This document shows positions 6,851 to 55,698 of a stretch of DNA of 64,000 nt, piece by piece (the first letter of the stretch is position 1; every line of letters starts with the position of its first letter). A program made the translations under genes and the position numbers. The notes under the pieces were generated by a model that searched no databases, had not been told where the DNA came from, and worked only from the letters and a program-made list of their open reading frames with translations. The stretch covers positions 44,864,001-44,928,000 of the forward strand of contig CP068257.2 in NCBI GenBank assembly GCA_009914755.4, in the 5' to 3' direction. Origin of the DNA: the human T2T-CHM13v2.0 reference genome, Homo sapiens.

Positions 6851-6903
6851 AAAATTTTGGAATTGTAGAAGAAATGCAATTCTTTTTTCCATTGTTGTTT
6901 TAG

Positions 6904-6975: not shown

Positions 6976-7105
6976 GTAAGGTCAATACACTCAGGTGTTA
7001 CATAGCAATTATATTGTTTCATAACATGTGATTTTTAAATTGTTTTTAGAGTTTAACATTTGTTAGCAATGTTAAACCAACTTTAAACACTGGTATATGT
7101 TGATT

Positions 7106-11310: not shown

Positions 11311-12743
11311 GAAGGGCTAATACTGATTTCTGTAGAGAGTGTTCCCATTCTCCAGTGCTGTATAACTGACCACCCCAAAATGTACACAGTACTTGAACAA
11401 CATCAGCAGCATCTGTTCTGCTCATAAATGTGCAGTGTAGGCCCAGCTCAAATGTTACCTTGTCCCTGTCCACAGAGCCAGAGCTGGGTGCTCAAGTCCT
11501 GGGCCAACATCCTGTGAGGGCTCCTCAGTCACAGCTGTGGCTGTTGGGGTGGGGAGACTCCTGCTGCCGAGCACCTGGCTCCCCACCCCTGCCTGTGTCT
11601 CCCTCTGTCCTCATGTGGCCCCTCCACTGGGGGGCTTAACACTCTAGACTTGGTGTGTGGTGTTGCACAGAGCCAGGTAGAGCCGTGTCGCCTTTCACGA
11701 CTAGCCTTGGAAGTCACACAGCATCACTTCTGCCACACTGCGCTTGTTGGGGCAGTCACTGACCTGCCCAGGTTTGAGGCAGCGTGGACTCTGCCTCTTC
11801 AGGGAGTGGTAAGGGCTGGAGGAGCCAGCGGGACTGCAATTCCTGCTGGCCAATTTTATGAAACATTTTGAAACAAAGGCTAAAGCTAAATGCATATTTT
11901 TGTTGAAGCACAGCTGCAGGTTTTGCTTTGTGCTGTCTGCAAATGTCAGCAAATTGGGTTCAAATGATACAGGGATTTTGTTCAGTGACTTGAACAACTG
12001 TTCCCCATTCCTTCGCTCACCGTAATGTGTCTTGAGGGCATCTGTGACCAGGGGACCACTGCCCAGAGAGTGGAGGTCCTGGTGAGGGAGTGTGGAGAGC
12101 AGCAGCGTGACCTTGATCTGCCCTGATTTGGAGGCGGAGCAAGTGGGTGGTGCGGCGAGGGCAGCTGGCCCGGCCTGAGCAGGTCCCAGCCTCTCAGCAC
12201 TTTGGGCCCTGACGCCATCTTTCTAATGCCCCTCTCGCTCTTGTTTTCTCTGACTTTTCACTTTTTTCCTGTTTGTATCAGAGGGCTACTGGTGGACCCC
12301 AGTGGTGGTCTGGTGAGCTGTTTCTCACTCAGGGTTTACCGACACTGTAGAACAATGCTGGGGACGAACAGCACGGACCATTTCAGACTTGGAAACGTAA
12401 TTCAGAAGTGGGCTTTGGGAGGGCTTTCTACCACGGCTCCCACCCCTGATGTGAGCTGCCATGTACTGTGCTGCCAAGGGTACAGGGCCAGCTGTTTGAT
12501 CATCACCCTTCATGCGGATGGTGAATGAGAGGCAGGGCTGGGTGATGTGGGGAGAGGAGAGCACGGAAGTGGATGTTGCCCTTAACCCACAGCATTTATG
12601 CGTCTATCACTGACTTCCAGATTAAAGGCTCTTTGATAGAGGGTATGCAACAGATGAGAAATGTAAGCTGTTTTCAATGGACTTTTTCATAATTGGAAAA
12701 GCAAATTGTTCACATAAGGTATTCCCATAAAATTGTGTTTCAG

Positions 12744-12863
12744 GAATAGACCCATCTCTGCAAGCAGAGAATAGAATTCCTGGGCCCTCACAAACCACGG
12801 CCGCTGCACCCAAGCAGCAGAAGTCTCGGCCCACCGCCTCGAGGGATGAGCGCTTCCGGTCAG
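12744..12863 (+). CDS. DIP2A: DIP2A coding exon (probable exon 3) encoding IDPSLQAENRIPGPSQTTAAAPKQQKSRPTASRDERFRS
   Basis: gtgtttcAG acceptor 12742-12743, GTAGGG donor 12864; 120 nt, phase 1-1; continues ORF from previous exon (..IQ-G-IDPS..). Confidence 0.85.
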
Positions 12864-19157: not shown

Positions 19158-19277
19158 AGATGTCCACACTGAAGCCGTGCAAGCAGCTTTGGCCAAATAC
19201 AAAGAGAGGAAGATGCCTATGCCTTCGAAGAGACGTTCTGTCCTTGTGCATTCGTCTGTGGAAACCTACACCCCTCC
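19158..19277 (+). CDS. DIP2A: DIP2A coding exon (probable exon 4) encoding VHTEAVQAALAKYKERKMPMPSKRRSVLVHSSVETYTPP
   Basis: ccttcctgtgtAG acceptor 19156-19157, GTATTG donor 19278; 120 nt, phase 1-1; paralog-like to DIP2B/DIP2C (DxHTEAVQAALAK). Confidence 0.85.
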
Positions 19278-20752
19278 AGGTATTGATAAACAATGTCAAG
19301 TGTGGCTTTTTTTGAGTGTTTCACAGGCCTGATGTTATCCTATTTACTTCCCATTGAGTTGGAATATCCGTCTGGCCTGTAGTATAGATTGGACGCATTT
19401 GGAGATTAAAAATGTTTGCATATGCTCATATTCCTTACCTGAAAATCTATGGTGTACATAGTATTCTTACCCAAATGGGTACTTGCTTTCTATAAGACTT
19501 TTTGTGTGGATCTTAATTTCTTTTACTAAGATGCTATTTATGTCTTTTAGTAAAGAGAAGAACCTAAAGCACTAAGAGGAGCCTAAAATAAGCACTAAGC
19601 TAAAGCTTCCTGAATTAGGAATTTTACAGTTATTGTCATCTTATTACCTATAACTTAACAGGTTGTAACCAGGACTTATATGCAACAGTATAAGACTATT
19701 TGGAAAGTTTTGCGGTTGATTTTGTTGTTGTTTTATTGTTGGTACCATTAGAAATGAAAACTTTTATATGAGGTTTCTCTCTAGCAATAATGTATTTTAG
19801 TCTTCCTGTTAAACTGCACAAGATGTCGATAGTGTCTAATGACTTCACATTCATGAACTTGCATTGTTGTCATATATTTAAAGTATCAAAAATAGTGACA
19901 CCCATTTTTGGTTTGAGGTATCTGGAGATACTACACAATAAAACCAAACACACCAGATTCGTAAGATGATTTAGTGGTTTTGGTAACACTTTCTTGCTTA
20001 AAAGAAGTTTATTGTTGAAAAAAATCTTAGAAATGGCTGTCAAATTATTGTTTTTGCTAAATATAGCTATAGACACTATCCAATTTTAAAATAATGTTTT
20101 AATAATTGTAAAACCCATAATGAAACACACAGTCATGCTGACTTGAAGAAACCTTAATGTACAGTTAATTTTGTTGTCTGAAGCAATTTTCTCGGAGAAG
20201 GAATTGTTTTTAGGGCTAGTTCACATGACTCCCCTGAAAGGATGCATGTAGACAGGGCTGCGGTTCTCCCATGGCCACCATGTTGTTGCTGGGGCCATGC
20301 ACAGGCCAGGATGCCTTCTCACTGCCTCCAAGATGTAGGGCCGGGCACAGGCTCTCCCCTGGGTGATGCTGACTGATGTGTGGATATGGTGTCCGACTCT
20401 GTGGACATGCAGTGCAGCACTGAATATTCACAGAACACCCCCACTGAGGTATATGCTGAAGCCGTTTAGGAGATCAGAGGCTGTCTTCACTGAGTGTGTC
20501 TGGTACCCTGTGGCTGAGTTCTCTCTGGGGAGCTGGGGGCTCATGGAATCATTTTCCCCACAGTAGGGCTTCTTGCATGCCCTTCTAGATTGAGGGTGAC
20601 CTTTGAGCTGACTGCGTGGCTTTGGGCAGAGCTGTGCCAGGTGTACAGAAGCATGCTGCACACAGGTCTGGGAGGCTCCAGTGTGAGTGGGAACTCCGTC
20701 CTCCTCTTGACTCATCCCGATATCATGCCTGTCATCGTTATTTTAACCACAG

Positions 20753-21004
20753 ACACGTCGTCTGCCTCAGAAGATGAGGGCTCTTTACGGCGACCCGGGC
20801 GACTCACCTCCACTCCGCTCCAGAGCCATTCCAGCGTCGAGCCCTGGCTCGACCGGGTCATTCAGGGCTCGTCCACCTCATCCTCTGCATCCTCCACCTC
20901 ATCTCACCCGGGAGGGAGACCCACCACTGCTCCCAGTGCTGCAGCCACGCCGGGGGCCGCCGCTACCACTGCACTCGCAGGCCTCGAGGCCCACACCCAC
21001 ATAG
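20753..21004 (+). CDS. DIP2A: DIP2A coding exon (probable exon 5); Ser/Thr/Ala/Pro-rich low-complexity linker TSSASEDEGSLRRPGRL...AGLEAHTHI
   Basis: ttttaaccacAG acceptor 20751-20752, GTCAGT donor 21005; 252 nt, phase 1-1; six-frame ORF 20590..21012 reads through this exon in the same frame. Confidence 0.9.
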   Translation, partial: TRRLPQKMRALYGDPGDSPPLRSRAIPASSPGSTGSFRARPPHPLHPPPHLTREGDPPLLPVLQPRRGPPLPLHSQASRPTPT

Positions 21005-31434: not shown

Positions 31435-31554
31435 GTGTCCCTGTGAACAGCAGAGTGTCCTCCAAAATCCAGCAGCTTCTGAACACCCTGAAGAGGCCAA
31501 AGCGCCCTCCACTGAAGGAGTTCTTTGTGGATGATTTTGAGGAATTGTTGGAAG
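31435..31554 (+). CDS. DIP2A: DIP2A coding exon (probable exon 7) encoding VPVNSRVSSKIQQLLNTLKRPKRPPLKEFFVDDFEELLE
   Basis: ccttcccgtgacAG acceptor 31433-31434, GTAAGA donor 31555; 120 nt phase 1-1; frame confirmed by ORF 31296..31715. Confidence 0.9.
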
Positions 31555-32670: not shown

Positions 32671-33109
<439 letters not shown>

Positions 33110-33593
33110 TATAATCAAATAATCTTTTAATTCTTTTTCTTTGAACATAGTGATAGTTGTTTGGATCCCTAGGCTGAAGTGGTGGTTCTGCTTGCTTTCC
33201 TCCTGTGTGAGTGGGCCACCAGGTCCTATCTCCAGGCTGTGGATACCTGGCTGTTCACCGCTGTGGTGCCGGGGGTAGCAGAGGTGCCACAGTCCTGTCC
33301 AGAAGTTGGGAAAGTGGGAACCACTCCAAGGTCACCTTTGTCTGTGAGGTTGTGGTCACCAGGATGGTGGGTTGTTTTTAACTTTATTTCACAGCCGTCA
33401 TCATCCATGACTAAAGCTCCTTTAATCCTTTGGTTAGTTGTCGGTGACTGTGATGCAAAAATCGAAACAAATTATTGTAAGCTTTTTTATAGTTGGGATT
33501 AAAAAACAATATTATAAACTATGAATGCTTAAAAACAGAATGTGTTCGTGGTGCTCTGAATTGCTGATTTTAAAGTTTTGATTTTGCTTGTAG

Positions 33594-33791
33594 TTCAGCA
33601 ACCAGATCCAAATCAGCCAAAGCCTGAGGGAAGCGAGACGAGTGTGCTGAGAGGGGAGCCTCTCACTGCAGGTGTCCCCCGACCGCCGTCGCTGTTGGCC
33701 ACCTTGCAGCGCTGGGGCACAACACAGCCCAAATCCCCCTGTCTGACTGCCTTGGATACAACTGGGAAAGCCGTCTACACTCTCACCTATG
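33594..33791 (+). CDS. DIP2A: DIP2A coding exon (probable exon 8) encoding QQPDPNQPKPEGSETSVLRGEPLTAGVPRPPSLLATLQRWGTTQPKSPCLTALDTTGKAVYTLTY; ends with non-canonical GC donor
   Basis: attttgcttgtAG acceptor 33592-33593; only frame-preserving junction to next exon is exon end at 33791 followed by GCAAGT (GC donor, 33792-33797); the GT at 33796 would create in-frame TAA; 198 nt phase 1-1. Confidence 0.8.
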
Positions 33792-33797
33792 GCAAGT
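33792..33797 (+). promoter_or_regulatory. DIP2A: non-canonical GC 5' splice site (GCAAGT) of the intron after probable exon 8
   Basis: only junction that keeps the DIP2 reading frame (tat g|GCaagt ... ttttAG|gt aaa ctt tgg gives Y-G-K-L-W). Confidence 0.75.
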
Positions 33798-34059
33798 GTT
33801 AACAGAAAGCAGTTGTGCTTCTGGGTTAGCTGTAGAATGTCACACACATAACACAGCATAGACATACAGCTTGATAAATATTCCTGAGAAACCAGCACAG
33901 CTGGCAGATAAATAGAACATTGACCTATACCAGGTACCCATCCCACCAGAGGGGACCACTCACTGATGCATGGTGACTGCCATTGCTCTGGGTTCAAGTG
34001 TTTGGAGCGTTCTATGTATGCATTCTGAACAGTGTAGTTTAGTTTCGTCTTATTTTCAA

Positions 34060-35600
34060 CTTTGTATAAGGGGAATCATGCAGTATGTATTTCTGTGTGT
34101 TTGACATCTTTTGGTTCCATACTATGTTTTTTTTGTAACACAAATAGTAAGCATATATACAACCTGATGAATTCACAGAGTGAATATGGTCCTGTAATCA
34201 GCACTCCAAGCAGAAGTGTTGCTAGGTTCAAAGCCCCTCACACCCCTTCCACACACAAAGGGTAACTACTGTCCTGACTGCCCACACTGTTGGCTTTACC
34301 TGCCTTTAAACAAGTGTTCTTTTAGTTTATTCTCATTGATGGTATTATTTTATCGTGTGAATATACTGGAACTTACTTACACACTCTTAAGTAGATGGAC
34401 ATTTGGGTGGTTTCCACTTTGGGGCTATTGTGTATAGTGCTGTTAGGGACATGCTTATGTGAGTTTCTTGGTGAGAATATGTAGGCATTTGTGCTAGGTA
34501 TAAATGCAGAAGCAGAATTGTTCAGCATTAGGACATACTGCCAAACAGTTTTCCAAAGGCAGTGCAGCAGTTTTCACTCCCACAGGCAGTGAGTACGTGA
34601 GGGGTTCCAGTTAACTCTTTTCTCACCAGCTTTTGATATTGTTTATTTCATTATAGTCTTTGTTGTAGGTGTGTTGTAGCACAGGCTAATTTGCATTTGC
34701 CTGGTGACAAATTATGCTTTTCATATGCTTATTGGTTGTTTGAATATCCACATTTATGTACTATTCAAATATTTGGCTCATTTCTCTGTTTGCTAATGCT
34801 TTCATCTTTCTTTTTTATTTTTTTTTCTGAGAAAAGGTTTCACTCTGTCACTCAGGCTAGAGTGCAGTGGTGCAATCATAGCTCACTGCTGCCTTGACCT
34901 CCTGGGCTCGAGATGCTCCTGCCTCAGCCTCCTGAGTAGCTGGGACCATAGGCTCACATCACCACACCCAGCTAATTTAAAAAAAAAAACAAAACAAAAA
35001 AAACTTTTTTTTGTAGAAATGGGGGGTCTCCCTATGTTGCCCAGGCTGATATCGAACTCCTGGCTAAAGCAGTCCTCCCATCTTAGCCTCTCAAAGTGCT
35101 GGGATTACAAGTGTGAGCCACTGCACCTGGCCTCTTATTTCTTTGTATGTTTCAGATAGGCATCTTTCCTGAGATGCATGTTTTGCAAATGTCTCCTCAC
35201 TATTTGGATTGCCTTTTAACACTTTTAATTATGGCTTTTAATGAATGAAAAGTCTTAATGTAATCTAACTTACATGTTGTTTTTTTTTTCCTGTATTGTA
35301 GCTAAGTTTTTGTCTAATTTAGAAATTTTTTACCAAACTTAAGGTCACAAAGATATTTTCCTGCATGCTCTTCTAAAACCTTTATTGTTTTACTTTTCAC
35401 ATTTAGGTGTGATGATCCATTTAGAATTTAATTTTGTATATTGTTGGAGTAAAGTTGTATATTGTTGGTATAAAGTTGGAGTCATTTTCTTATGAGTATC
35501 TAACTGACTCAGTATCATTTATTGAAAAGGCAATCCTTTCCCCAAAGTACTGCAGTGTTACTTTGTTATATAGTGGGTGAAAAATGTACTTGCGGGTCTG
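34060..35600 (+). mobile_element. old L1 (L1M-like) 3' end, interrupted by Alu 34811-35132
   Basis: ..gaatcatgcagtatgtatttctgtgtgtttgac...ttgtttatttcattatagtctttgttgtaggtgtg.. | ..ctaacttacatgttg...aaacttaaggtcacaaagatattttcctgcatgctcttctaaaacctttattgttttacttttcacatttaggtgtgatgatccatttagaatttaattttgtatat.. Confidence 0.55.
34811..35132 (-). mobile_element. Alu nested in L1
   Basis: ttttttattttttttctgagaaaaggtttcactctgtcactcaggctagagtgcagtggtgc...gtgtgagccactgcacctggcc. Confidence 0.9.
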
Positions 35601-35845
35601 TTTCTGGGCTCCTGTTGGCGGGGGGTGTTGTCAGTCTGTTGTCTCTCCATGCTCTGAATCACTGTAGCATTAGGAGTCCTCTTGCTCTGTGATGGTTCCT
35701 CAAGATTGCCTTGACTCTTCTTGGCTCTTTGTATTTCCAAGTAAACTTTAGAATTAACTTGTCAATTTCCATAAAAATTACTACTGGGATATTGATTGGC
35801 ATTGCATTGAATCTCTAGTTCAATTTGAATAGAACTAATGTTTTA

Positions 35846-36098
35846 TAGGTTGAGAGCATCCCAAATATGAAAATCCAAAATCCAAAATGCTCTAAAATCT
35901 GAAACTGCTTGAAGCTGACATGATGCTCAAAGAAAATGCTCATTGGAGCATTTTGGATTTCTGATTTTTGGACTTGTGATGCGATGCTCAACTGGGAAAT
36001 AAATATAATGCAAATATGCCAAAATCTAAAAAAAAATTGAAATCCCAAACACTTCTAATCTCAAGCATTTCGGATAAGGGATACTCAACCTGTATTAC
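35846..36098. mobile_element. MER53-like nonautonomous DNA transposon with terminal inverted repeats
   Basis: tataggttgagagcatccc ... ccaaaatccaaaatgctc / gagcattttggatttctgatttttgg palindrome ... tcccaaacacttctaatctcaagcatttcggataagggatactcaacctgta. Confidence 0.55.
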
Positions 36099-36327
36099 AA
36101 TTATGTAATCTTCCAGTTTATGATTGTGGAATATTTTCCCCTTTTTAAAGGCCTGCTTCAATTTCTGTCAGTAATGTTTTTATACTTTGGAATACAGAAG
36201 TCTTGAGCACCTTTTATTAGATTTATTCCTGTTACAAGTGCTGTAATTTGTAATTTTCTCTACTGATTTGTTGCTTATATATAGAATTGCAATCTATATT
36301 ATTATTATTTTAAAATGATGACTTTGT

Positions 36328-36654
<327 letters not shown>

Positions 36655-37664
36655 TTAACTTATTAGTTCTTTGTTTACTCATAATTAGAAGTTTGTCTAT
36701 ATATCTTTTGTATTACCTGTCTACAAAAATCACATTATTGGTGAATAATGATAGTGTTATTTTGTCCTTTCCAATACTTATACTTTTATTCTTTTTTTTT
36801 TTTTTTTTTTTTTTGGTTTTTTTTTTTGCACAAGCTAGAACCTCCAGTACAGTGTGAAATAGAACAATGTTGAAGAGTGGGCATTCTTGCCTGTTTTTCC
36901 ATCTGAGGAAAAGCCTGTGGTAATTAAGTATGATGTGTTCTGTAGTTTTGTTTGCTTGTTTGTTGGTAGAAACTGTCAGATTAAGAACGTTCCCTTCTCC
37001 TTGTTTGTTAAAAGTTGTTATCATGAGTTGGGATTGAATTTTGTCAAATGCTTTTTCTGCTGCTAGAAAGAAGATCATATGATTTTCCTCCTTCATTAAT
37101 TTGGTGAATTATTTTGATTAATTTTCTAATGTAAAGCAGCCGTTCATTTGTAGAATAAATCCCACTTGGCCATAATATCTTACCCTTTTAAATATACACC
37201 CAGATTTAATTTGCCAATAAGTTGTTTAGGATTTTTACGTCTGTTTTCATTAGAAAAATTGATCTGTAATTCTTTAAGAAAGGAGCCCATTGCCAGCCTT
37301 TGATGAGTATGCCTAGCTCACAGCCTCAACTGTTAAACCAGCGTTCAAATCTAGGTCATGCTATTGGCAGAGCAGTCCCTGGCCAATGGCCAAGTAAGGC
37401 AGTGGGACAAGGGCCTAGTTTCTGTTAGCATGGACTTTCCTTAAAAACAGCATTGGGCTTGTGGAGACTGTCAGTTCTACATTGTGGCTTGACAGCTCCT
37501 CCTGCCCAATCTTGCTACCTGTCTTTTCCTGTCACAGATTTTTATTCTTTAGTAATCCTTTTGCATGCCTGAGCCTTTCTCAGCGTCTGCTTTGTGAAGA
37601 ACCCAGCCTGTGACACACTTCCTCTTTTTTTTTTTTTATATATTCTCCTTGGCTTGCAGTTTAA

Positions 37665-38007
<343 letters not shown>

Positions 38008-38009
38008 CA

Positions 38010-38658
38010 TTGTTTTTTGTTTGTTTGTTGTTTTAATCAACCATACATTTTTATTCTTTCTTTTACTATATACATTCCTTCCTGAGATTCTGTATTTTCC
38101 TGGGTAATCATTTCCTTCTGGCCTGTAGAACTTCCTGTATGTTCGTTATACTGTAGCTTTGCTGGCAACTTCATTTTTGAAGGTTATATTTCGTGGTGGT
38201 TTATCTTCTTTCAGCAATGCAAAGATATTGTTTATAGGCTTTTGAGAAGATGCCAGACCATTGTTGCTCTATTGACAGTAATGTGTATGGCCGCTTAAAA
38301 AGTGTTCTTTTTATTTGAATTGCAGCCGTCTTACTATGACATTTAGAGGTGATGTTCTTTGAAAATTTCCTGTGATGTTCTTTGAAATTTTCAAGATGTC
38401 CACAGGGCTTCTTGAATCTGTAGAATGGTGTCTTTCATCTGTTTGAGAAAAATTACAGCCATCTTCTCTTACTATATTGCTTCTTCCTCACTTTTTTTCT
38501 TCTCTCCTTCTGGGACTCCAGTTACACTTATACTTTTTCCCTGAGTCCTACATGTTTAATGTTCTTTTTTATATTTTGCATTCTTTCTTATATATACTTC
38601 AATTTGTATATTTTCTATTTTCCTTTATTCAAATTGTTTAATCTTGTCTTCTGAAATT

Positions 38659-38693
<35 letters not shown>

Positions 38694-39237
38694 AGATGGA
38701 GTCTGGCTCTGTCGCCCAGGCTGGAGTGCAAGTGGTGCGATGTCAGCTCACTGCAAGCTCCGCCTCCCGGGTTCACGCCATTTTCCTGCCTCAGCCTCCT
38801 GAATAGCTGGGACTATAGGCGCCTGCCACCGCACCCAGCTAATTTTTTTGTGTTTTTAGTAGAGACAGGGTTTCACTGTGTTAGCCAGGATGGTCTCGAT
38901 CTCCTGACCTCATGATCCGCCTGCCTCGGCCTCCCAAAGTGCTGGGATTACAGCCGTGAGCCACCGCTCTTGGCCCTGAAATTTCTAATCTGCTGTGAAA
39001 TCCTGATGAGTTCCTTATTTTAGATATTGCCTTTTCAGTTTAGAATTTTCATTTCTCTATTATAGTTACTATTCTAATACTCTGGAAAAATTTCTCATTA
39101 TTCCATACACTTTCCTAATCTTTGCTTCTGCTGCCTTGAATACACACATCAATTATTGTAAATGAAAGTCTTTGTTAGCTAACACCAATATCTGTATCAC
39201 CTTTGGGTCTGTTGCTCTTGTCTGTGTTTTCTCTCTC
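38010..39237 (-). mobile_element. old L1 fragment (ORF1/ORF2 junction region, antisense) interrupted by Alu 38661-38975
   Basis: ..gaatctgtagaatggtgtctttcatctgtttgagaaaaattacagccatcttctcttactatattgcttcttcctcac...ccttctgggactccagttacacttatactttttccctgag.. resembles L1 antisense strand. Confidence 0.5.
38661..38975 (-). mobile_element. Alu (33-nt poly-T) with TSD ctgaaatttct
   Basis: t33 gagatggagtctggctctgtcgcccaggctggagtgcaagtggtgcgatgtcagctcactgcaagctccgcctcccgggttcacgcc...; TSD 38650-38660 and 38976-38986. Confidence 0.95.
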
Positions 39238-39560
39238 TTTTTTTTTTTTTTTTTTTTTTTTTTTGAGACAGAGTCTTGCTCTGTTGCCCACACTGGAGTG
39301 CAGTGGTGATCACAACTCACTGCAGCCTTGACTTCTTGGGCTCAAGAGGTCCTCCCACCACAGCCTCCTGAGTAGCTGGGACTACAGGTGCACAGCACTA
39401 CGCCCAGCTAATTTTTTCTTTCTTTCTTATTTTCTTTTTTTTATAGAGATGGGGTTTCACTGTGTTGTCCAGGCTGGTCTTGAACTCCTGGGCTCAAGTG
39501 ACCTGCCTGCCTCAGCCTCCCAAAGTGCTGGATTACAGGCGTGAGCCACCATGCCTGGCC
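39238..39560 (-). mobile_element. Alu (29-nt poly-T; expanded T/C-rich middle linker)
   Basis: t29 gagacagagtcttgctctgttgcccacactggagtgcagtggtg...ggcgtgagccaccatgcctggcc. Confidence 0.9.
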
Positions 39561-40289
39561 TTTTTGATTGAATATTGTATGTTGTGTATAAAAACATTAT
39601 GGCAGGTCCAGACAATGTCATCTTCCTTAAGAGAAACCTCTTTCCCCTCCAAGTAGAGTAGTGGCTGGCTGGTCGCTGCAGTCCAGTCATGCCTGGCCCA
39701 GCCGGCCTTTGCTCTCCTCTGGCTCTCCTGGGCTTTCTGCCAGTGCCTGGTGTGTCCATGTGTCTCTTTCCTCTGATGGCTTCCCAGCCGTGGCGTTGGT
39801 CTCCTCGTGGCTTCTTAACAACCCCATTCTGCTTTTCAGAGGTTTTCCACATGGGCTCTTGGTCTCCTGCTGCACACAGCCAGAGGATTCAGCACATGTC
39901 CTGCAGGAGGTGGCTGTGCTCTCGAGACTCCTAGCCTCTACCAAAAGCTCTGCAGGTTTCTTCATGTCCTGGTGGGACTGCTCCAGGTGGATACTCAGCC
40001 CCCCGTGGGGGCTGGAATCCCTGAACATGGACAGCGTAAAGACAGCTGCAGCTCAGCTCACTTTCCGGAGGGTTTTCCCTCTCTGGAATCTTAACTCCTC
40101 TAGTTGTCTTTGCTGAGCAGCAACTTGCTGCCTCCAAAAGATCATTTCTGCATTTTATTCAGTTTTTAAACTCATCTTAGGCAGGAGTGCTGGTCTGCCA
40201 CCAGTACCCTCTCCTACTCGGAAGCAGAGTCTTCCACCATGGTGCTTTTAAAATTCATCCATGTTATTGCGGGTAGTTGTAATTCATTT

Positions 40290-41071
<782 letters not shown>

Positions 41072-42032
41072 TTATTAAGAAAGCAAAGGAATAAAAGAAT
41101 GGCTACTCCATAGGCAGACCAGCAGCTTGGGCTGCTGGACTAAGAATACTTAGAGTTATTTCTTGACTATATGCTAAACAAGGGGTGGATTATTCATAAA
41201 TTTTCTGGGAAAGGGGTGGGCAGTTTCTGGAACTGAAGGTTCCTCCCATTTTAGACCATCTAGGATAACTTCCTGACGTTGCCATGGCTGCTGTAAACTG
41301 TCATGGCACTGGTGGGAGTGTCTTTTAGCATGCCAATCATTGTAAGTAGTATATAATGAGCAGTGAGTTCAACCAGAGGTCACTTACATTGCCATCTTCA
41401 TTTGCGGGGACTTGGCCAGCTTCTTCACCACACATGCTGTTTTATCAGTAAGGTCTTTATGACCTGTATCTTGTGCCGACCTCCTATCTCATCCTGTGAC
41501 TTAGAATGCCTAACTTCTGGGGGTGCAGCCCAGCAGATCTCAGCCTTATTTTACCTAGCCCCTATTCAAGATGGAGTTGCTCTGGTTTAAACGCCTCTGA
41601 CATATTTCCCCTCTCTGTTTTATGAGAGAAGCCTTAATTCTAAAGGTTGTAGAGGGACAAAGATTCATCTTCTATAACTTCTTCAGGCTGAACAGGAGTG
41701 ATGACATTCCTGCCTAACTATTAGGGTCTTTTATATTTGAGAAAGAAAGGAGCTAAGTCAGAAAGCATCAGTATGGTGAGGGCCATTCATAACGCCAAGA
41801 AAATTTGGTATCTGGAAGATTAATAAGTGTTCAGTTTAAGAAAACATTGAGTAAGCTTATCCTGCATTCCTACACAGAGTACAACAGCAATATATTCCAC
41901 AACAGTAAAACAAAATAAGTAAAATTATCCCAAGTAAATTAAATAGGGATTTTCATGAACTGGGTAACTGTTGGAACTAAGATGATATGGGATTGCTAGC
42001 TGATTCCAGTGTGCCCAGAATTAGAATATTGA

Positions 42033-42357
<325 letters not shown>

Positions 42358-42496
42358 TGATCCAGATTTTTACATTACCCATCTCTCTTGTTTCTCTCTA
42401 CTTTACTCAATTGTTAAAAGCTGTAAATAGCTCAAAAGAGAAGTTTTCTTGGCTCTGAAAAACAAAACAAAGAATCAGCAACAATTTAAGCAAAAA

Positions 42497-42614
42497 GTCA
42501 AAACAAGTTACTTCTGTTTTCTACTGGTTCTATTAGTCCTATTAGTTCAGCTCATGTCAAAACAAGTTACTTCTGTCTTCTATTAGTTCTGTTAGTCCTA
42601 TTAGTTCAGCTCAT
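42497..42614. repeat. tandem duplication of a 59-bp unit (2 copies, ~90% identical)
   Basis: tcaaaacaagttacttctgt[t/c]ttct..ttagtcctattagttcagctcatg repeated head-to-tail. Confidence 0.85.
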
Positions 42615-43339
42615 GCAGTTAACTCCTGTTCGATATTCATGAACATTTTGGCTCTCCATGAGAGTCCTGAAAGTTTTTCCTCTATTCGAATGTCACAACC
42701 TCCAAAGTTATCAGAAACCTGCATTCAAAAACACCTGTTAGAGTTCTCTAGTTGATTATAAAACCACCTTCTAAAGAGGACCCAAACAAGACAACAATTT
42801 TGTATGGATGACAGAATGCCTTAGGGCAGCCTCTACAAAAGCCACAATTGACTAGGAATTTTGATTACTTCTGTGACATGGAACAATTTAACATACCAAT
42901 TATATTAATAACATGTACTGTCATATCAGAGTTATAGAAGTTTCACACGATTTTGGAACACAAACCAATAACATATTTATACAAATATAGCCCAAAGAAA
43001 GCCAAGCATCATTTCATATCTGACAGTGCTTGCTGTGTGATTTTTATACCAAATAAGCTGAATATGTCATTTTTTGGACTTGAGAGGACCTAATATCTAA
43101 AAGATTAATTAGGTCAGGAAAAGGCAGAATTTAGAGTATGATGTTGGAAAGTTTGTCAAATATTAAAGGTTTAAACGCTTGATATTACAAAATAGAATCC
43201 CAGGTCACCATAAGTCATTCATTTACCCAAAATGATAACTCAAAAATTTTTAAAAGGCAAAATCCTTTACTCATTAATAGAAGGAAAACTTAGCTTTCCA
43301 AATAATCTGTCTCCTTTCTTTCCCTTCTTTTTCCTATAG

Positions 43340-43672
<333 letters not shown>

Positions 43673-45104
43673 ATCTTTCATTATTTTTTTTAATATAAAA
43701 ATCCTGCTCAAGGGAGAAAGCAAAATTTCACCATTGCATTAGCGCATTATTGATGTCAAACCCAATTCTTAATAAAACCTTGTAGACAAATCTATTCAAC
43801 CATAAGGTAAGATTCTCATAAACCTTTTATAACCCTTTACACTTTTTGTTAAAGAGCAGATTCATGCTCCAAGAAAACTGTTGTGCTTTTATTCCAGTAT
43901 TCAATTTATGGAAAAACTGAATAATACCCCTTTAACTTTAGGCCAGTGTGTTCACACACAATTTCTTTTACAAGATTAATTTTTCACAAACCTTCCACAA
44001 CTTGCTCAAACCTTCAGCATTATTCTATCCAACTGAAAATAATCCTTTAACCCTTTAATCTAGGCAAAAAAAAATCCACATTCCCATGACTTCTTACAAT
44101 CTTTTTACCAAAAACACATTTCACTTTCCGTGCACATTTCACACCTTGCAGGTAGAACTGCTTTTCCCATAGTCCCATAGTCTCAAGTACATGTTACATT
44201 GTTAACCGAAGAAGCAGTTTATGACCGTAAAGCATTTAGCAAACCTAATATCTGACCTGTCTAATTTAGACCAAATGCCTAAATTTTTGAAGATATTTTT
44301 ATTTTACCAATAGTCTTTAAAACTGTCTTTATTTCCCAAAGGTTACTTAAGTCACATGAACTAAAAGGCATTACAGTTTTAATTTTTCTGACAAGATATT
44401 TGGTTTAAGGTCTTAGTATTTTTAAACCAATTAATCAAAGCTCTTTCATATATAAACATCACACACATAACATGTAAATAGACAGAAGATCCAGGAGACG
44501 TAAGATTTTCCATTTTCCAGTTTCTAAGTTTCTTAACTGGATTACTGGCTTCAGGGTGGAGCTCTTTGCTAAACAGGGCTAGGGAAACATGCAGTTTCTG
44601 GAGCCTAATAAGCAGCTGGAAGGCAAAGCAGATTCCAAAAATCAAAGTTCTCATTTCTATACCAGATACTGGATCCTCAAAAAGGGAATCAGCCCATCCC
44701 CCATGGGAGTGTTATCTCTCAGTGGGGCTTGGGGGACATTTCCATACCTTCTAGGTGGCCAAGAGCATGCTTCTCTGATCCAAACATGCAGAGAGGTGTG
44801 TATTCCCCTACAACTGCCATTAGCTACCCCCAAAGTATATTTCCTCCCTAGTTCTTACACCAGAGCTTTCTCGTCATGTGAAATCAAAACCGTCAGATAA
44901 CACAGTGCTGCAAAACAGAGCAGAGCCTTAGATTTTGAGATTTTAAATTTTAAATTCCTGGGGTTTCATGAGGAAAACAGAGGTTCTTCCCAAAATGGGG
45001 TCTGTGGCTCCTCCTCTGTTTCCCCCAAAGAGTCCCAGGCTGTTAGACCTTGAATATCTGCTTTTAAGGTGACTTTTAACCATAGTGCTCTTTTATTTTT
45101 TTAA

Positions 45105-45410
<306 letters not shown>

Positions 45411-45411
45411 T

Positions 45412-45727
45412 TCTTATTTATTTATTTATTTATTTTTTGAGATGGAGTCTGGCTCTGTCGCCCAGGCTGGAGTGCAGTGGCGTGATCTTGGCTCACTGCA
45501 ACCTCCGCCTCCCAGGTTCAAGCAGTTCTCCTGCCTCAACCTCCTGAGTAGCTAGGATTACAGGCGTGCGCCTGGCTAATTTTTTTTTTTTTTTTTTTTT
45601 TGTATTTTTAGTAGAGACGGGGTTTCACCATGTTGGCCAGGCTGGTCTTGAACCCCTGATCTTGTGATCCACCCGCCTCAGCCTCCCAAAGTGCTGGGAT
45701 TACAGGTATGAGCCACTGCACCTGGCC
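45412..45727 (-). mobile_element. Alu with (TTTA)n tail; outer TSD ccatagtgct at 45080-45089 and 45728-45737
   Basis: ttatttatttatttatttattttttgagatggagtctggctctgtcgcccaggctggagtgcagtggcgtg...ggtatgagccactgcacctggcc. Confidence 0.9.
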
Positions 45728-47080
45728 CATAGTGCTTTTTTTTTAAATTCCTTTTAAATCTCTTATTACCCAACTTCAGCCAGGCCTTACGGCCAATATT
45801 TCTGACTTTGGAACTTTACCAAAGGTAACCTCCCAGGTGAAAACAATAAACTTTAGCCAATAAGCTACAGTATTGGGCACTTGGACTATTCCCAGAAGAA
45901 GTCTAGAGCATCCAATTCTGAGCTTGCAAAGGCTTTTAACTGCTCGAGATAACCTTTAGAGCTAACTATGATATGAACCCTCAAATTCCTGTTCACTCGG
46001 TGGAAACCAAGAGAAAGTACCTCCGCGTGGTTACAAGTCAACTCCCAAGGACATTTTTCAACATGTGGTCTCTGGGCAAGATGAAGGAGCAGTTGCCCTG
46101 AGTAACAGAAAAGATGGAAAAGAGAAAGGGAGAAAAGCATTGCCTATGGCAGTATGGGGAAGGTGAGGAGCTCAGGGAGGCCGGAGAAAGACCCAGCCAT
46201 TGCGGCGACGCTGAATCAAAAGTTCAGGCAGCCGCTTGTCAGTAATGAAGGGATCTTTTCCAGCTGTCCCGTCAGCTCTGGAGTTTCCCCTTTTGGGGAG
46301 AAAAAATGCTCCCATGTTCCATGATCCTGTACATGCCTAACCTTGTCACCCAAAGCCGTCAGCAAAGAGTGCAAGGCAGATGAATCCAGAGAGAATAGTG
46401 GTTAACATTCTGTAGTGCCAGATCCATTCTTGGCCACGAGGGACTTTACTGAAGGGGGACCCTCTAACCCCTTATATCTTAGGAAGGTCTCTAACCTTCC
46501 CAAGTTGGGCCTCGAACCCAGGTTTGTTCAAGTGCCCTTGCCTTTTATTAAGAGGGGCCTTTAACCCACTCTGTCTTAGGAGAAACTCTGACTCCCCTAA
46601 GTTGGGACTCTAACCCAGTTCCATCCTTTACCCTGGTAAATGCACCCCACTTACCCAAAGTCGGCCAATTGGTGCTGTGGTCTTATCTCCTTTGGGTCGG
46701 GGGTCTCCTCAGTATTGTCCCTTTGGAATTCACCGGGAAGATGTTCCCAGAAAGGGATCCTATTCCAGACCCCAAGAGAGGCTCCTTGGACCTTGTGCAA
46801 GAAAGAATTCAGGGCAAGTCAGTGTAGTAAAGTGAAAGCAAGTTTATTAAGAAAGCAAAGGAGTAAAAGAATGGCTACTCCCTAGGCAGAGCAGCTGCAC
46901 CTTTTCTAATACAGGATCATTTATAGGAATTTTTTATATTATATTCTGGATCCCAGCCCTGTGTCAGTAATACCTTGCGAGAGTTCTCTCCCTCTTTGTG
47001 GCTGGCTTTCCACTAATGGTAGCTTAGTGAACAGAAGTTCTATCAATCACCTTCTTTTCTTTTATGATTTTTGCTTTTTG

Positions 47081-47406
<326 letters not shown>

Positions 47407-48034
47407 TAAGTACTGTTTCCCTTGGCTGAGATCAAAACATTATTCCATTAATTTGGGAAAATGCTGTTGTTTTACTGTTCACATTTAGGTCTGCCATTCA
47501 CCTGGAATGTGTTTTTGTGAATGGTGTGGGACTGGGTTCCCGGGTTCGTTTCTAAAGAAAGATAACCTACTGTCCCGTTCTTGTCTAAGGAGGAGACAGC
47601 CCTTGCCCCACTCTTCTGTGGTGGCACGTGGGTCATCAGTTGAGTTGTCCACACATGGGTGGATCTGTTTTGCTGTTCTCTGTTTTATTTCACTGATTTA
47701 TTTTCTATCTTTGTGCCTATACCACACTGTCTTAATTGCCATAGTTTTATAATAAGTCTTGACATCTGTAGAGAAAGCCTGCCATCTTGTTTTCTTCTTC
47801 AAAAGTATCTTACATGCTCACTTTGGCAGCACATACACTAAAACTGGAATGATGTAGAGAAGATGAGCATGGTACCTGTGCAAGGATGACACACTTTTGT
47901 GAAATGTTCCATATTTAAAAAACTGAAAAAAAGAGTGTCTTAGCAATTCTTACCCTGTGCATTTCTGGATCCACTTTAGAATGAGCTTATCAGGTGTCAC
48001 AGTATACCTACTGAGATTATTAGCATTACTTTGA

Positions 48035-48400
<366 letters not shown>

Positions 48401-48534
48401 ACCTTTGCATTATTGAGTCTTCCAGCCCTTGGACATCTGTCCCTCCATTCAAATATTTTTTACTTTATCTCAGTAATGTATGGTTTTCTGTGGGGAGATT
48501 TTGCATATTTCTTGTGACAGTCTCAAGTACTTAG

Positions 48535-48885
<351 letters not shown>

Positions 48886-49516
48886 TGTTTACTCTGTATT
48901 GCTAGTATGTAGAAATCAAATGGTGTTTGTATGTTGATATATTTAGCAGCCTTGCTAAATTCAGTTACAAAAGATTCATAAGCTACACCATCGTGTCATC
49001 TGCAAATAATGGTAGTTATATTTCCAGTTGTTCAGCTTTTTCTCCCTTTTTGCACTGGCTAAGCCTTTCAGTAAAATGCTGAAAACAGACATCCTTTACT
49101 TACTTCTCTCAGAGGGGAAGCTTTCAATATCCAACCATTAATTATGATATTTCCTGTTGGGTTTCTAAAGATGCCCCTTATCACATTAAGGAAGTATGTT
49201 TCCTTTTATTCTGAGTTTAAGAAGAATTTCAAAAATCATTTAAAATCATTTTAAAATCATGAATGATTTAAACTGTTTTTCTTTTCTTCCATCTATTGAT
49301 ATGATTGTTTTATTTTTCACCTTTATTTTGTTAATGTGGCAAATTATGTGGGTTTTCTGTTGAACCTCTTTGCATTCCTGAGATAAAACTGACTTGGTCA
49401 TGATGCATTATTCTTTTTATGTAGCTGGATTCAGTTTGAAATTCTTTATGCATTACAATTATTAACACCTTAAACTGACCTTTTAAAATAGGCTAAAACA
49501 GTGGTTTGAGTTGAGG

Positions 49517-50003
<487 letters not shown>

Positions 50004-50625
50004 TGATAGGCTGCTTGGTGAGGGGGTGTTAAGGCTCCTTCAAGTGTGGGGGGTTAGACTCAGATTTCTCAGTCTTCCTGTCCCATGGTCACCCCTGCCT
50101 CTGTCGTCCTCTCTAGACACCCCCAGTCCTCTAGGCTTTTCCTTTCTCTATTGTCCTGTCTTCCTCAGTGAAGCTCTCCCCTATTGAGTGCTTATGAGCA
50201 TAGCAGCTGCGCCAGGAGGGGTGTGTGGTGGGAAGGACCTCAGGGGATAAGAGCTGGTTCCTGGGCCCTGTGCCTGGCGTGAGGTCCTGATGGCTTTCCA
50301 AGTAAAGAATGGATGGCATTGATACCCGGATCACCTTTGGATCTGTTGCTTTGGTTTATATTGTCTCTTGATTTTTGGTCAGGGGAACTTCTCTTTGGGG
50401 ATGGCTGGTATTTTAACATCTTAAATTTAACATATTAAATTAGGAATTTAACATGTTAAAACAAAGATATGACCCATTTCATGAATTGTTGTAAAGATTA
50501 AAGAAATTATGTGCTACTCTTACAAATGATGTAATTGAGGGATATTTAACGTAATGAAAATCCATTTACAATGCAATATTAATTTAAAAAGTAGGGTGAA
50601 GTATCTCATTTCTTGAAAATTTTAC

Positions 50626-50700
50626 AGGCATGTATACGTGTTTATATGTGTATAGCTGTATATATATGCACACATATGTACATATACATATGTATACCAA
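50626..50700. repeat. imperfect (TATG/TACA)n-type low-complexity repeat
   Basis: gtatacgtgtttatatgtgtatagctgtatatatatgcacacatatgtacatatacatatgtatacc. Confidence 0.8.
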
Positions 50701-50721
50701 ATACTGACTTTTTCTGCTTGC

Positions 50722-51020
<299 letters not shown>

Positions 51021-51268
51021 TAGTCCAGATTTTCTGTAATAAAATCCTATTTTATTTTTGTATTAAGAAAAATAAATCTGTAAGCTATTTTTAAGAGAAA
51101 ACAATGATGTTCATTACAACATTGTGCAGAATAGTTATTAGTTGGAAACTACCTAAATTTCCACTAATGGGGTAATGGTATATTTCGGGGTATTTTGGTT
51201 TCTACATTAAAATGTTAATTACTTGTTTCTTAAATTTTACATTGCTTAGTATTTTTATTTTGTTTTAG

Positions 51269-51360
51269 GTAAACTTTGGAGTCGGAGTTTAAAACTAGCT
51301 TATACTCTACTTAATAAACTGACAAGTAAGAATGAACCTCTACTTAAACCTGGAGACAGA
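51269..51360 (+). CDS. DIP2A: DIP2A coding exon (probable exon 9) encoding (G)KLWSRSLKLAYTLLNKLTSKNEPLLKPGDR
   Basis: ttttattttgttttAG acceptor 51267-51268, GTAAGT donor 51361; 92 nt phase 1-0; conserved DIP2 motif TLTYGKLWSRS spans the junction. Confidence 0.85.
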
Positions 51361-51494
51361 GTAAGTAACTAGAATGTCACTTTGTTGGAAGGAGCAAAAG
51401 CAGGGACTTAAATAATCTGTTTCATTGAAATTAGTGTTCTATCATTTAGTTAGAATTACAGCATTAATACAAGGGATTTAAAATCAGCAGTGAG

Positions 51495-51809
<315 letters not shown>

Positions 51810-54301: not shown

Positions 54302-54412
54302 GTGGCGCTCGTGTTTCCGAATAGTGACCCTGTGATGTTCATGGTTGCATTTTATGGGTGTCTCCTGGCAGAGCTGGTTCCTGTCCCCATAGAAGTGCCA
54401 TTAACAAGAAAG
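54302..54412 (+). CDS. DIP2A: DIP2A coding exon (probable exon 10; start of AMP-binding-like domain) encoding VALVFPNSDPVMFMVAFYGCLLAELVPVPIEVPLTRK
   Basis: tctttgtcctgttgtAG acceptor 54300-54301, GTAGCA donor 54413; 111 nt phase 0-0. Confidence 0.9.
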
Positions 54413-55698
54413 GTAGCAAACCCATGGCTCAGGTCCCGTGTGGTTCGCTTCTGAACTTGATACCAGCAGTATCTTACTTCCTTTTCACTCATGTGGGCAG
54501 GCAGCAAGCAGCTGTTTTGACAGAGGAGAGAAAGCTAGTAGTCAACAGGCTGGCCAGGACTCAAGAGAAATCAGATGCCGTTTTGCCTGCCTCTCTTCTT
54601 GTTAATGAGAGGGGCACTGAGAACCGTTTTGCTGGTGATGCTCCCACACCACACTCTTATTAGGTGGAGCTGTTCTATCATCTACATGAATTTCCCAACA
54701 GAAATGATAGCCATTTTTTCCTCTAATGAATAGAATTATGATTCAATAAGATTTTGTTCAACTTTTCCTCAAAACCATATGTTTATAGAAAATAATTATT
54801 ATTTCTTAGGGATAAATATATCATTACAGTGATATAGCTCACTTCTCAGTGGCAGTTTTGAATAAACGAGATGGAAATTATCTTGCATTTCTGTTCACTT
54901 ATATGACCGTAGGCAGTTTCTGTTGCTGATAAATTATTAATGTGGGGTCTTGCTGATCTAGGTATCTGTAACATTTTTGATATAACTATCAATAATATGA
55001 TTACTGAAAAAAAATAGACAAGGCATGAATTTGAGAAAATCAGTTTTCTGTCATCCTGTCCCAGAATTCAGGCAGTTGTTAACAGGAGCATTATCCAGAA
55101 ATATTCAAGAATCCCAAAAGTAAAATTTGCAAATCAAACTAGTGTATCTCAAAGCATAATATGTGATGGGCAGGTATTTGAATGCAGTGGTTCTTAGGAG
55201 TAAAACTAGAGATTTGTCAAATTTATATGAAGAAAATGACAGAATACTGCTGAGGGACACAGAAGACTTGGCTACAAGGAAATGTGTTTCTGTGTGGAAA
55301 TAATTTAATATCGTTAGTGACCAGGCCTCTCTAGATTAATTTGTAAATTTCAAACATGATTCAATAGAAATTTCAATGCCATTAACTTTGGAGTTTATTA
55401 AAAATGCTTCTAAATGTCATTTGTAAGAATAAACTTTGAGAAATTAGCCCATTAAACTTTATATTTCAACACAAATACAAACCAAAATTATCTTTTAAAT
55501 TTAAACATAGTTGTCACATTTTCATGAACTATTTCCGTGAAAAGATCATATATATCAATAATGGGACTGAATTATTCTGGAAGTTTTATGAGTGATGAAA
55601 AAAAGATCTGTTCTCTGTGCATGGCCTGGAGCACCAAGGGTCTGGGGCTGTGGCTGCTGTGAGCACCCCACCCCACACGGTCACTCTGCTTTCTGCAG

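What the first reader, a model, noticed from the sequence alone, without database searches (positions are those of the whole stretch)
33780..33800. Non-canonical GC-AG intron after probable exon 8
The only junction that preserves the DIP2 reading frame into the next exon (ttttAG|GT AAA CTT TGG = G-K-L-W) ends exon 8 at ..ACC TAT G and is followed by GCAAGT. The nearby GT at 33796 would join to give TAT GGC AAG TAA, an in-frame stop. GCAAGT is the classic GC-donor consensus (G|GCAAGT). GC-AG introns make up about 1% of human introns and are often alternatively spliced or sensitive to weakening.
Basis: partly seen in the sequence, partly recalled or inferred. Interest (0 to 1): 0.5.

Follow-up and report, generated by a model that had tools for sequence, protein, structure and literature searches.

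The report
GC-AG intron 8 of human DIP2A
Intron 8 of the human DIP2A gene starts with GC instead of the usual GT; this rare but well-known kind of splice site is real and is shared by all mammal-type sequences sampled, but it is an ordinary, already annotated feature.

Summary
Exon 8 (33594-33791) ends ...ACC TAT G and is followed by GCAAGT (33792-33797). Exon 9 starts at 51269 after ttttag, so intron 8 is a 17,477-nt GC-AG intron.

The window encodes residues 31-448 of a deposited Homo sapiens DIP2A protein (100% over the exon-confined matches). That protein reads ...TLTYGKLWSRS..., which this genome produces only by joining 33791 to 51269.

Intronless mammalian DIP2A contigs show the same junction. 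Another shows this donor position joined to exon 10.

All 9 distinct mammal-type DIP2A sequences sampled carry G|GCAAGT, including tamarin-, woodchuck-, mouse-, whale- and bat-like ones. Their flanking intron is only about 50-58% identical. Bird-type and other non-mammal-type DIP2A sequences, and DIP2C-type paralogues, have GT at the same position. This fits a GT>GC change in the mammalian lineage, a documented trend.

Two other GT sites (33741, 33798) are also in frame, but they are weak and do not give the conserved protein.

This is a typical U2-type GC donor, compensated by consensus at -1 and +3 to +6. Whether it regulates splicing is untested. Interest is low.

The parts
31435..31554 (+). 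DIP2A exon 7 (120 nt; gacag|GTGTCC ... TTGGAAG|gtaaga; ends in phase 1)
   Evidence: 100% match to human DIP2A protein P0264 residues 262-301; GT donor.
33594..33791 (+). DIP2A exon 8 (198 nt, phase 1 to phase 1, so skipping it would keep the frame); encodes (V)QQPDPNQ...TLTY(G)
   Evidence: The acceptor tgtag|TT gives Val as G|TT with exon 7. The exon end is conserved in all orthologue-type and paralogue-type sequences.
33792..33797 (+). GC donor of intron 8: G|GCAAGT. Consensus at -3 (A), -1 (G), +1 and +3 to +6; non-consensus at -2 (T) and +2 (C).
   Evidence: U1 duplex -6.3 kcal/mol (would be -11.0 with T at +2). Identical in 9 mammal-type sequences. An independent contig of the same locus, L016, has the same C.
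33796..33799 (+). Decoy GT dinucleotides. 33796 is out of frame and gives a TAA stop. 33798 is in frame (+6 nt, Lys-Cys) but the donor GTTAAC is very weak.
   Evidence: Not conserved in the rodent-type sequences.
33792..51268 (+). Intron 8, 17,477 nt, GC-AG, U2-type
   Evidence: Boundaries. No U12-type donor motif ([AG]TATCCTT) on direct reading.
51236..51268 (+). 3' splice region. Candidate branch point TTTAC (A at 51239, 29 nt upstream). T-rich tract tatttttattttgtttt (51250-51266). AG at 51267-51268.
   Evidence: direct reading. The branch point is inferred from the yTnAy consensus, not tested.
51269..51360 (+). DIP2A exon 9 (92 nt; GT AAA CTT TGG ... GGA GAC AGA|gtaagt); skipping it shifts the frame
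   Evidence: An exon 9-skipped contig was seen in another mammal-type sequence (L015).
54302..54412 (+). DIP2A exon 10 (111 nt; start of the first AMP-binding domain); donor GTAGCA
   Evidence: P0264 reads through this donor to a stop at 54452-54454 (short isoform).

Best explanation
This is the 5' splice site of intron 8 of human DIP2A, a U2-type GC-AG intron spliced by the major spliceosome. The C at +2 removes one base pair with the 5' end of U1 snRNA. That loss is offset by consensus bases at -1 (G) and +3 to +6 (AAGT), and by a T-rich acceptor. The site therefore pairs with U1 about as well as the weaker GT donors of neighbouring exons and is used as the normal donor (the compensation is inferred). 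GT at the homologous position in bird-type and other non-mammal-type DIP2A sequences and in DIP2C-type paralogues points to a T>C transition in the mammalian lineage. Such a change would be tolerated because the rest of the site is near-perfect (inferred).
For: **Shown**
- The sequence is at the stated coordinates.
- The window is human DIP2A: 100% identity to P0264 over exons 2-10. P0264 contains TLTYGKLWSRS.
- Among candidate donors from 33740 to 33900, only 33792 reproduces that peptide.
- Intronless mammalian DIP2A contigs P0214 and P0215 read TLTYGKLWSRS.
- L015 joins ...ACCTACG directly to exon 10, so the same donor position is used.
- The donor is G|GCAAGT in 9 of 9 distinct mammal-type sequences, and GT in bird-type L004-9 and L017, in L012 and L013, and in DIP2C-type L018-21.
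- Pairwise identity is 100% at +1..+6, against 58% at +7..+30 and 49% at +31..+90.
- The U1 duplex is -6.3 kcal/mol, against -9.5, -8.0 and -6.2 for the donors of exons 7, 9 and 10.
- All the other donors that could be read cleanly in the window are GT.

**Literature**
- GC donors make up about 0.8-1% of junctions, and 1,934 human protein-coding genes have one.
- The pattern 'GC in mammals, GT in chicken and fish' is described for BLVRB and AZI2 (PMC7242645).
- GT>GC conversions outnumber GC>GT conversions 298 to 40 in primate and rodent lineages (PMC2490688).
Against: - No human RNA-seq junction counts could be inspected. Human usage rests on one deposited protein model plus cross-species contigs.
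- The species of the Logan contigs are inferred only from 90%-identity cluster mates.
- No marsupial, monotreme, afrotherian or xenarthran was identifiably sampled, so 'mammalian lineage' cannot be dated more closely.
- The U1 duplex energy is a crude proxy; MaxEntScan was not available.
- L014, L015, P0214 and P0215 could be retrocopies in genomic data rather than RNA-seq contigs. Either way they derive from spliced mRNA.
Confidence: 0.93

Rival explanations
1. The GC donor is a deliberately weak, selected regulatory point. It would slow or modulate removal of the 17.5-kb intron 8 and tune DIP2A output through intron retention or detention, frame-shifting exon 9 skipping (with nonsense-mediated decay), or in-frame exon 8 skipping. 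This adds to the best explanation rather than excluding it.
For: - The C at +2 is unchanged in 9 mammal-type sequences, although C>T would create a perfect GTAAGT.
- Contigs L014 (rodent-type) and P0198 (bat-like) have exons 7-8 spliced but continue into intron 8.
- L015 skips exon 9.
- Exon 8 is 198 nt and symmetric, and a hamster DIP2C model (P0125) lacks it.
- As a class, GC donors are enriched in alternatively spliced genes (PMC2490688, PMC7242645).
Against: - The evidence is three anecdotal contigs without any quantification. Partly spliced transcripts are common in assemblies, and a 17-kb intron is slow to remove whatever its donor.
- Invariance of a single site over this tree is not statistically remarkable. 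By my estimate the chance of no C>T change under neutrality is about 0.3-0.5.
- The protein search returned mostly short products, which favours truncated or aberrant ones.
- P0125 is a different paralogue and a computational model.
Confidence: 0.15
2. The true donor is the in-frame GT at 33798 (AGT|GTTAAC), giving a protein with an extra Lys-Cys. The GC would then be incidental.
For: It keeps the reading frame into exon 9 and has a canonical GT.
Against: - It is a very weak site: 3/9 consensus matches and a U1 duplex of -1.8 kcal/mol.
- The deposited human protein and all spliced homologues read TYGKLW without an insertion.
- This GT is absent in the rodent-type sequences, which read GCAAGTAT or GCAAGTAC.
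- Non-mammal-type sequences and DIP2C-type paralogues place their GT exactly at the G| position.
Confidence: 0.01
3. The C at 33793 is a sequencing or assembly error, or a rare allele, of an ordinary GT donor.
For: None beyond the prior that about 99% of donors are GT.
Against: An independent metagenome-derived contig of the same locus (L016, 99.5% identical over 939 nt) has the same GCAAGT. So do 8 other mammal-type sequences.
Confidence: 0.01
4. Intron 8 is a U12-type (minor spliceosome) intron.
For: It has a non-GT donor. There is a TTTCTTAAAT stretch upstream of the acceptor.
Against: The donor GCAAGTGT bears no resemblance to the U12 donor consensus [AG]TATCCTT. The TTCTTAAA stretch is about 35 nt from the acceptor, further than I recall U12 branch sites usually lying, and it does not match TCCTTAAC. 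The donor fits the U1/U2-type consensus at -1 and +3 to +6.
Confidence: 0.01

Closest known systems
U2-type GC-AG introns of mammalian protein-coding genes (about 0.8-1% of junctions; e.g. BLVRB and AZI2, which are GC in mammals and GT in chicken and fish; PMC7242645)
   Same: GC at +1/+2 and AG at the 3' end. Near-consensus at the remaining donor positions (G|GCAAGT). An inner intron. GC conserved across the mammal-type sequences sampled, with GT in non-mammal-type sequences.
   Different: At 17.5 kb the intron is much longer than the reported mean for human GC-AG inner introns (about 4.2 kb; PMC7242645). This particular intron was not named in the papers searched.
GT>GC donor conversions accumulated in mammals (Churbanov et al. 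2008, PMC2490688)
   Same: A GT state in outgroups and paralogues and a GC state in mammals. The strong surrounding context would allow neutral fixation.
   Different: That study mapped events on primate and rodent branches. Here GC is already shared by primate-, rodent-, bat- and whale-like sequences, so the change is older, on or before the stem of those groups.
Regulatory GC donors (e.g. C. elegans let-2 intron 10, cited in PMC2490688)
   Same: A conserved C at +2, next to exons whose skipping was seen in at least one contig.
   Different: There is no evidence here that the C is needed for regulation. Isoform usage was not quantified.

Membership tests
U2-type GC-AG intron | GC at intron positions +1/+2 at the junction actually used | tested here: met
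   G33792 and C33793. The junction is fixed by human protein P0264 and by frame enumeration.
U2-type GC-AG intron | AG at the 3' end, preceded by a pyrimidine tract | tested here: met
   tatttttattttgttttAG|GT at 51250-51269.
U2-type GC-AG intron | Compensating consensus at the other donor positions ((A/C)AG|GCAAGT) | tested here: met
   ATG|GCAAGT: among positions -3 to +6, only -2 and +2 are off consensus. U1 duplex -6.3 kcal/mol, within the range of the neighbouring GT donors.
U2-type GC-AG intron | The junction is present in mature mRNA | tested here: met
   Deposited human DIP2A protein P0264; intronless mammalian contigs P0214 and P0215; the L015 donor position. Human RNA-seq read counts were not available.
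U12-type intron | Donor [AG]TATCCTT and branch site TCCTTAAC close to the acceptor | tested here: not met
   The donor is GCAAGTGT and there is no matching branch site close to the acceptor.
DIP2A (disco-interacting protein 2 homolog A) gene | Sequence identity to the named human protein, and orthology rather than DIP2B or DIP2C | tested here: met
   100% over the exon-confined matches to P0264 [Homo sapiens] residues 31-448. Cluster mates are named DIP2A in tamarin, flying fox and Phaethon. DIP2B and DIP2C carry distinct exon 8/9 signatures.
DIP2A (disco-interacting protein 2 homolog A) gene | DMAP1-binding domain followed by AMP-binding domains | tested here: met
   Precomputed Pfam PF06464 and PF00501 on P0264. 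Only the first part of the gene lies in the window.
Alternative-splicing-associated or regulatory GC donor | Measurable alternative use of the donor or flanking exons that depends on C at +2 | tested here: inconclusive
   Single contigs show intron 8 retention (L014, P0198) or exon 9 skipping (L015). There is no quantification and no test of dependence on the C.

The most novel reading that the evidence does not exclude
The mammal-specific GC donor is kept by selection as a rate-limiting step for removal of the long intron 8. DIP2A protein output would then be tuned through intron detention or frame-shifting exon 9 skipping, and a C>T change would alter isoform balance.
Probability: 0.12. Interest if true: 0.3.

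Novelty: already known. Interest (0 to 1): 0.1.

Why it matters
It matters little for biology. The site is one of roughly two thousand human protein-coding genes with a GC-AG intron, and the junction is already implicit in a deposited human DIP2A protein.

Two practical points follow.

- **Annotation:** deposited gene models of DIP2A in tamarin, black flying fox, bowhead whale and woodchuck all run through this donor and stop in intron 8. Only the woodchuck DNA was inspected, and there the donor is GC. This may be a recurrent failure point for predictors that expect GT.
- **Variant interpretation:** from general knowledge of GC donors, which rely on consensus at the other positions, variants at -1 or +3 to +6 of this site should be more damaging than at a typical GT site. 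A C>T at +2 should be benign or strengthening.

Tried and rejected
- **Literature:** a search for 'GC-AG' with 'DIP2A' found no papers. DIP2A/B/C do not appear in the held supplements of the GENCODE GC-AG survey. A search on DIP2A, splice, isoform and exon returned nothing whose title or abstract concerned this intron.
- **Metagenome scan for more orthologues:** only 6 loci were returned, including one copy of the same locus.
- **Species of Logan contigs:** they cannot be read directly. Cluster-mate names gave only approximate labels.
- **First two protein searches:** they returned mainly single-exon ORFs from genomic contigs, which cannot tell GT from GC because GGT and GGC both encode Gly.
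- **Rejected readings:** a GT donor at 33796 (gives a stop), GT donors at 33798 and 33741 (weak, wrong protein), a U12-type intron, and a sequencing error.
- **Minus strand:** a 161-aa ORF antisense to exon 8 (33512-33997) is a mechanical ORF with no support.
- **Rarity of the motif:** GCAAGT occurs 10 times in the window, so the motif alone carries no weight.

Full report
**1. What is in the sequence**

On the + strand the window reads ...GGG AAA GCC GTC TAC ACT CTC ACC TAT G|GCAAGTGTTAAC. The last exon base is G33791 and the intron starts with G33792 and C33793.

The open frame begins after tgtag| at 33594 and encodes (V)QQPDPNQPKPEGSETSVLRGEPLTAGVPRPPSLLATLQRWGTTQPKSPCLTALDTTGKAVYTLTY(G). 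The exon there runs 51269-51360 and ends AGA|gtaagt.

Intron 8 is therefore 33792-51268, 17,477 nt, of the GC-AG type.

The GT at 33796 exists.

**2. Gene identity and exon numbering**

The third protein search returned P0264, 'DIP2 disco-interacting protein 2 homolog A (Drosophila), isoform CRA_c [Homo sapiens]', 448 aa. tblastn of P0264 against the window placed residues 31-448 in nine blocks, 100% identical wherever a match is confined to an exon:

| Exon | Window coordinates |
|---|---|
| 2 | 6903-6977 |
| 3 | about 12743-12862 |
| 4 | 19159-19278 |
| 5 | 20752-21003 |
| 6 | 26536 to about 26670 |
| 7 | 31435-31554 |
| 8 | 33594-33791 |
| 9 | 51269-51360 |
| 10 | 54302-54412 |

Residues 1-30 (exon 1) lie upstream of the window, so 'exon 8' is correct and the gene is human DIP2A.

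Other evidence agrees:
- Proteins within 90% identity of the orthologue-type ORFs are named DIP2A in Saguinus oedipus, Pteropus alecto and Phaethon lepturus.
- DIP2B-type and DIP2C-type sequences have clearly different exon 8/9 signatures.
- An Alu directly after exon 9 fits a primate genome (my own recognition of the Alu consensus).

**3. Is the GC site the donor that is used?**

P0264 reads ...GKAVYTLTYGKLWSRSLKLAYTLLNKLTSKNEPLLKPGDRVALVFPN.... I enumerated every GT and GC from 33740 to 33900 joined to the 51269 acceptor.

| Donor position | Site | In frame? | Consensus matches | U1 duplex (kcal/mol) | Result |
|---|---|---|---|---|---|
| 33792 (GC) | ATG\|GCAAGT | yes | 6/9 | -6.3 | gives TYGKLW |
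| 33798 (GT) | AGT\|GTTAAC | yes | 3/9 | -1.8 | inserts Lys-Cys |
| 33741 (GT) | CCT\|GTCTGA | yes | 4/9 | +0.7 | deletes 17 residues |
| 33796 (GT) | CAA\|GTGTTA | no | 4/9 | -3.4 | in-frame TAA stop |

Only 33792 reproduces the deposited peptide.

Support at the RNA level comes from other mammals:
- Two intronless Logan contigs encode mammalian DIP2A with TLTYGKLWSRS (P0214, P0215).
- Contig L015 joins ...ACCTACG directly to the first bases of exon 10 (GTGGCCCTGGTGTTTCCGAAC). This uses exactly this donor position while skipping the 92-nt exon 9.

These contigs could be RNA-seq assemblies or retrocopies. Either way they record spliced mRNA.

**4. Conservation**

GGT and GGC both encode Gly, so the read-through ORFs from the protein search could not tell GT from GC. 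I therefore fetched DNA (donor table).

G|GCAAGT is present in all 9 distinct mammal-type DIP2A sequences:
- the window itself. L016, an independent metagenome contig of the same locus, 99.5% identical over 939 nt, has the same donor but is not counted separately;
- L001/L002 (tamarin-like);
- L003;
- L010 (Marmota monax, GCA_901343595.1);
- L011 (mouse-like);
- L014 (rodent-type, spliced upstream);
- L022 (whale- or cetartiodactyl-like);
- L023 (Pteropus-like);
- L024-26 (bat-like).

Species labels for the Logan contigs are inferred from cluster mates.

GT sits at the identical position in all other sequences:

| Group | Loci | Donor |
|---|---|---|
| Bird-type DIP2A | L004-9, L017 | GTAGGT |
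| Other non-mammal-type | L012, L013 | GTAAGA |
| DIP2C-type | L018/19 | GTGAGC |
| DIP2C-type | L020 | GTAACC |
| DIP2C-type | L021 | GTAAGA |

Among the nine mammal-type sequences, mean pairwise identity varies by region:

| Region | Mean pairwise identity |
|---|---|
| Last 60 exon bases | 85% |
| Intron +1 to +6 | 100% |
| Intron +7 to +30 | 58% |
| Intron +31 to +90 | 49% |

The intron position is ancient. The GC state appears only in the mammal-type sequences sampled, which points to a T>C transition in the mammalian lineage. No identifiable marsupial, monotreme, afrotherian or xenarthran was sampled, so the event cannot be dated more precisely.

**5. Mechanism**

Shown:
- The donor matches the U1-complementary consensus at -3, -1, +1 and +3 to +6. 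It is off consensus at -2 (T) and +2 (C).
- The computed duplex with the U1 5' end is -6.3 kcal/mol, and would be -11.0 with T at +2.
- The donors of exons 7, 9 and 10 give -9.5, -8.0 and -6.2.
- All other donors that could be read cleanly in the window are GT.
- The acceptor has a 17-nt T-rich tract.

Inferred:
- This is the usual compensation pattern of GC donors described in the literature (PMC2490688; PMC3167603, abstract).
- The intron is removed by the major spliceosome.
- A candidate branch point, TTTAC, lies 29 nt upstream of the AG.
- Nothing resembles a U12-type donor.

**6. Comparison with what is known**

- GC-AG junctions are about 0.8% of junctions in protein-coding genes, and 1,934 human protein-coding genes have at least one.
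- More than 75% of GC-AG introns in the genes conserved between human and mouse share their ordinal position.
- The pattern 'GC in mammals, GT in chicken, fugu and zebrafish' is illustrated for BLVRB and AZI2 (PMC7242645).
- Churbanov et al. inferred 298 GT>GC against 40 GC>GT conversions in primate and rodent lineages. They proposed neutral fixation in a strong context, possibly followed by recruitment for alternative splicing (PMC2490688).

DIP2A intron 8 fits this class in every tested respect. The only mild peculiarity is its length: 17.5 kb against a mean of about 4.2 kb for human GC-AG inner introns.

I found no paper naming this intron. The junction is nonetheless implicit in the deposited human protein, so I rate it as already known.

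**7. Possible regulation (not established)**

- Exon 8 is 198 nt and symmetric, so skipping it would keep the frame. Exon 9 is 92 nt, so skipping it shifts the frame.
- I saw one exon 9-skipped contig (L015).
- Two contigs have exons 7-8 spliced but run on into intron 8 (L014; P0198).
- One hamster DIP2C model lacks exon 8 (P0125).

These are anecdotes from a search that returned mostly short, often truncated products. They are not quantified.

Invariance of a single C across nine mammal-type sequences is not statistically compelling on its own. My rough estimate of the chance of no C>T change under neutrality is 0.3-0.5.

I give the regulatory reading about 0.12-0.15.

**8. Verdict**

- **Observation:** confirmed.
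- **Interpretation:** supported, with a minor correction about in-frame alternatives.
- **Nature:** an ordinary, annotated, mammal-conserved U2-type GC-AG intron.
- **Interest:** low.

Noticed in passing
window 33792 onward; proteins P0183 (Saguinus oedipus KAK2089671.1), P0197 (Pteropus alecto ELK03605.1), P0188 (Balaena mysticetus bmy_18698T0), P0005 (Marmota monax): Four deposited automated DIP2A gene models end by reading through the exon 8 donor into intron 8 (...TLTYGKC... or ...TLTYGKY...). Only the woodchuck DNA was fetched, and its donor is GC, so the gene may be truncated or split there because the GC donor was not recognised.
   Followed up: partly
window 54413-54454: The deposited human protein P0264 (448 aa) ends by reading through the weak exon 10 donor (AAG|GTAGCA) into intron 10, giving VANPWLRSRVVRF and a stop. 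This is a short DIP2A isoform that truncates the protein just inside the first AMP-binding domain.
   Followed up: partly
L015 (Logan SRR22936748 contig) 700-800; corresponds to window 33791 joined to 54302: A mammalian DIP2A contig joins exon 8 directly to exon 10. The 92-nt exon 9 is skipped, giving a frameshift and the stop GGPGVSEQ*. Its 5' end carries about 36 nt alignable to the 3' end of intron 6, preceded by about 390 nt that do not align to the window.
   Followed up: partly
L014 927-1052; P0198: A rodent-type contig and a bat-like contig have upstream DIP2A exons spliced together but continue past the GC donor into intron 8. This could be intron retention or pre-mRNA.
   Followed up: no
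window 33798-33850 versus L003, L022, L023, L024: The first 50 nt or so of intron 8 (GTCAACAGAAAGCAG...TTAGCTGTGAAAT) are recognisably conserved among the primate-, whale- and bat-like sequences but not in the rodent-type ones. This might be an intronic splicing element or just slow divergence.
   Followed up: no
window 51480-51600, and at about 538, 14831, 17617, 27503, 36328, 38853, 42233, 62917: An Alu lies directly downstream of exon 9. The repeat at the 5' end of L016 also hits about eight other places in the window on both strands, which looks like further Alu copies.
   Followed up: no
L016 (OOQC01014043.1) versus window 32985-33922: A metagenome contig matches this locus at 99.5% over 939 nt and then diverges completely. 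It is probably host contamination with a chimeric or rearranged contig end.
   Followed up: no
P0125 (Cricetulus griseus, DIP2C-type): A deposited hamster model joins exon 7 directly to exon 9 (EELLEGKLW), omitting the 198-nt symmetric exon 8. It is either an in-frame isoform or a prediction artefact.
   Followed up: no
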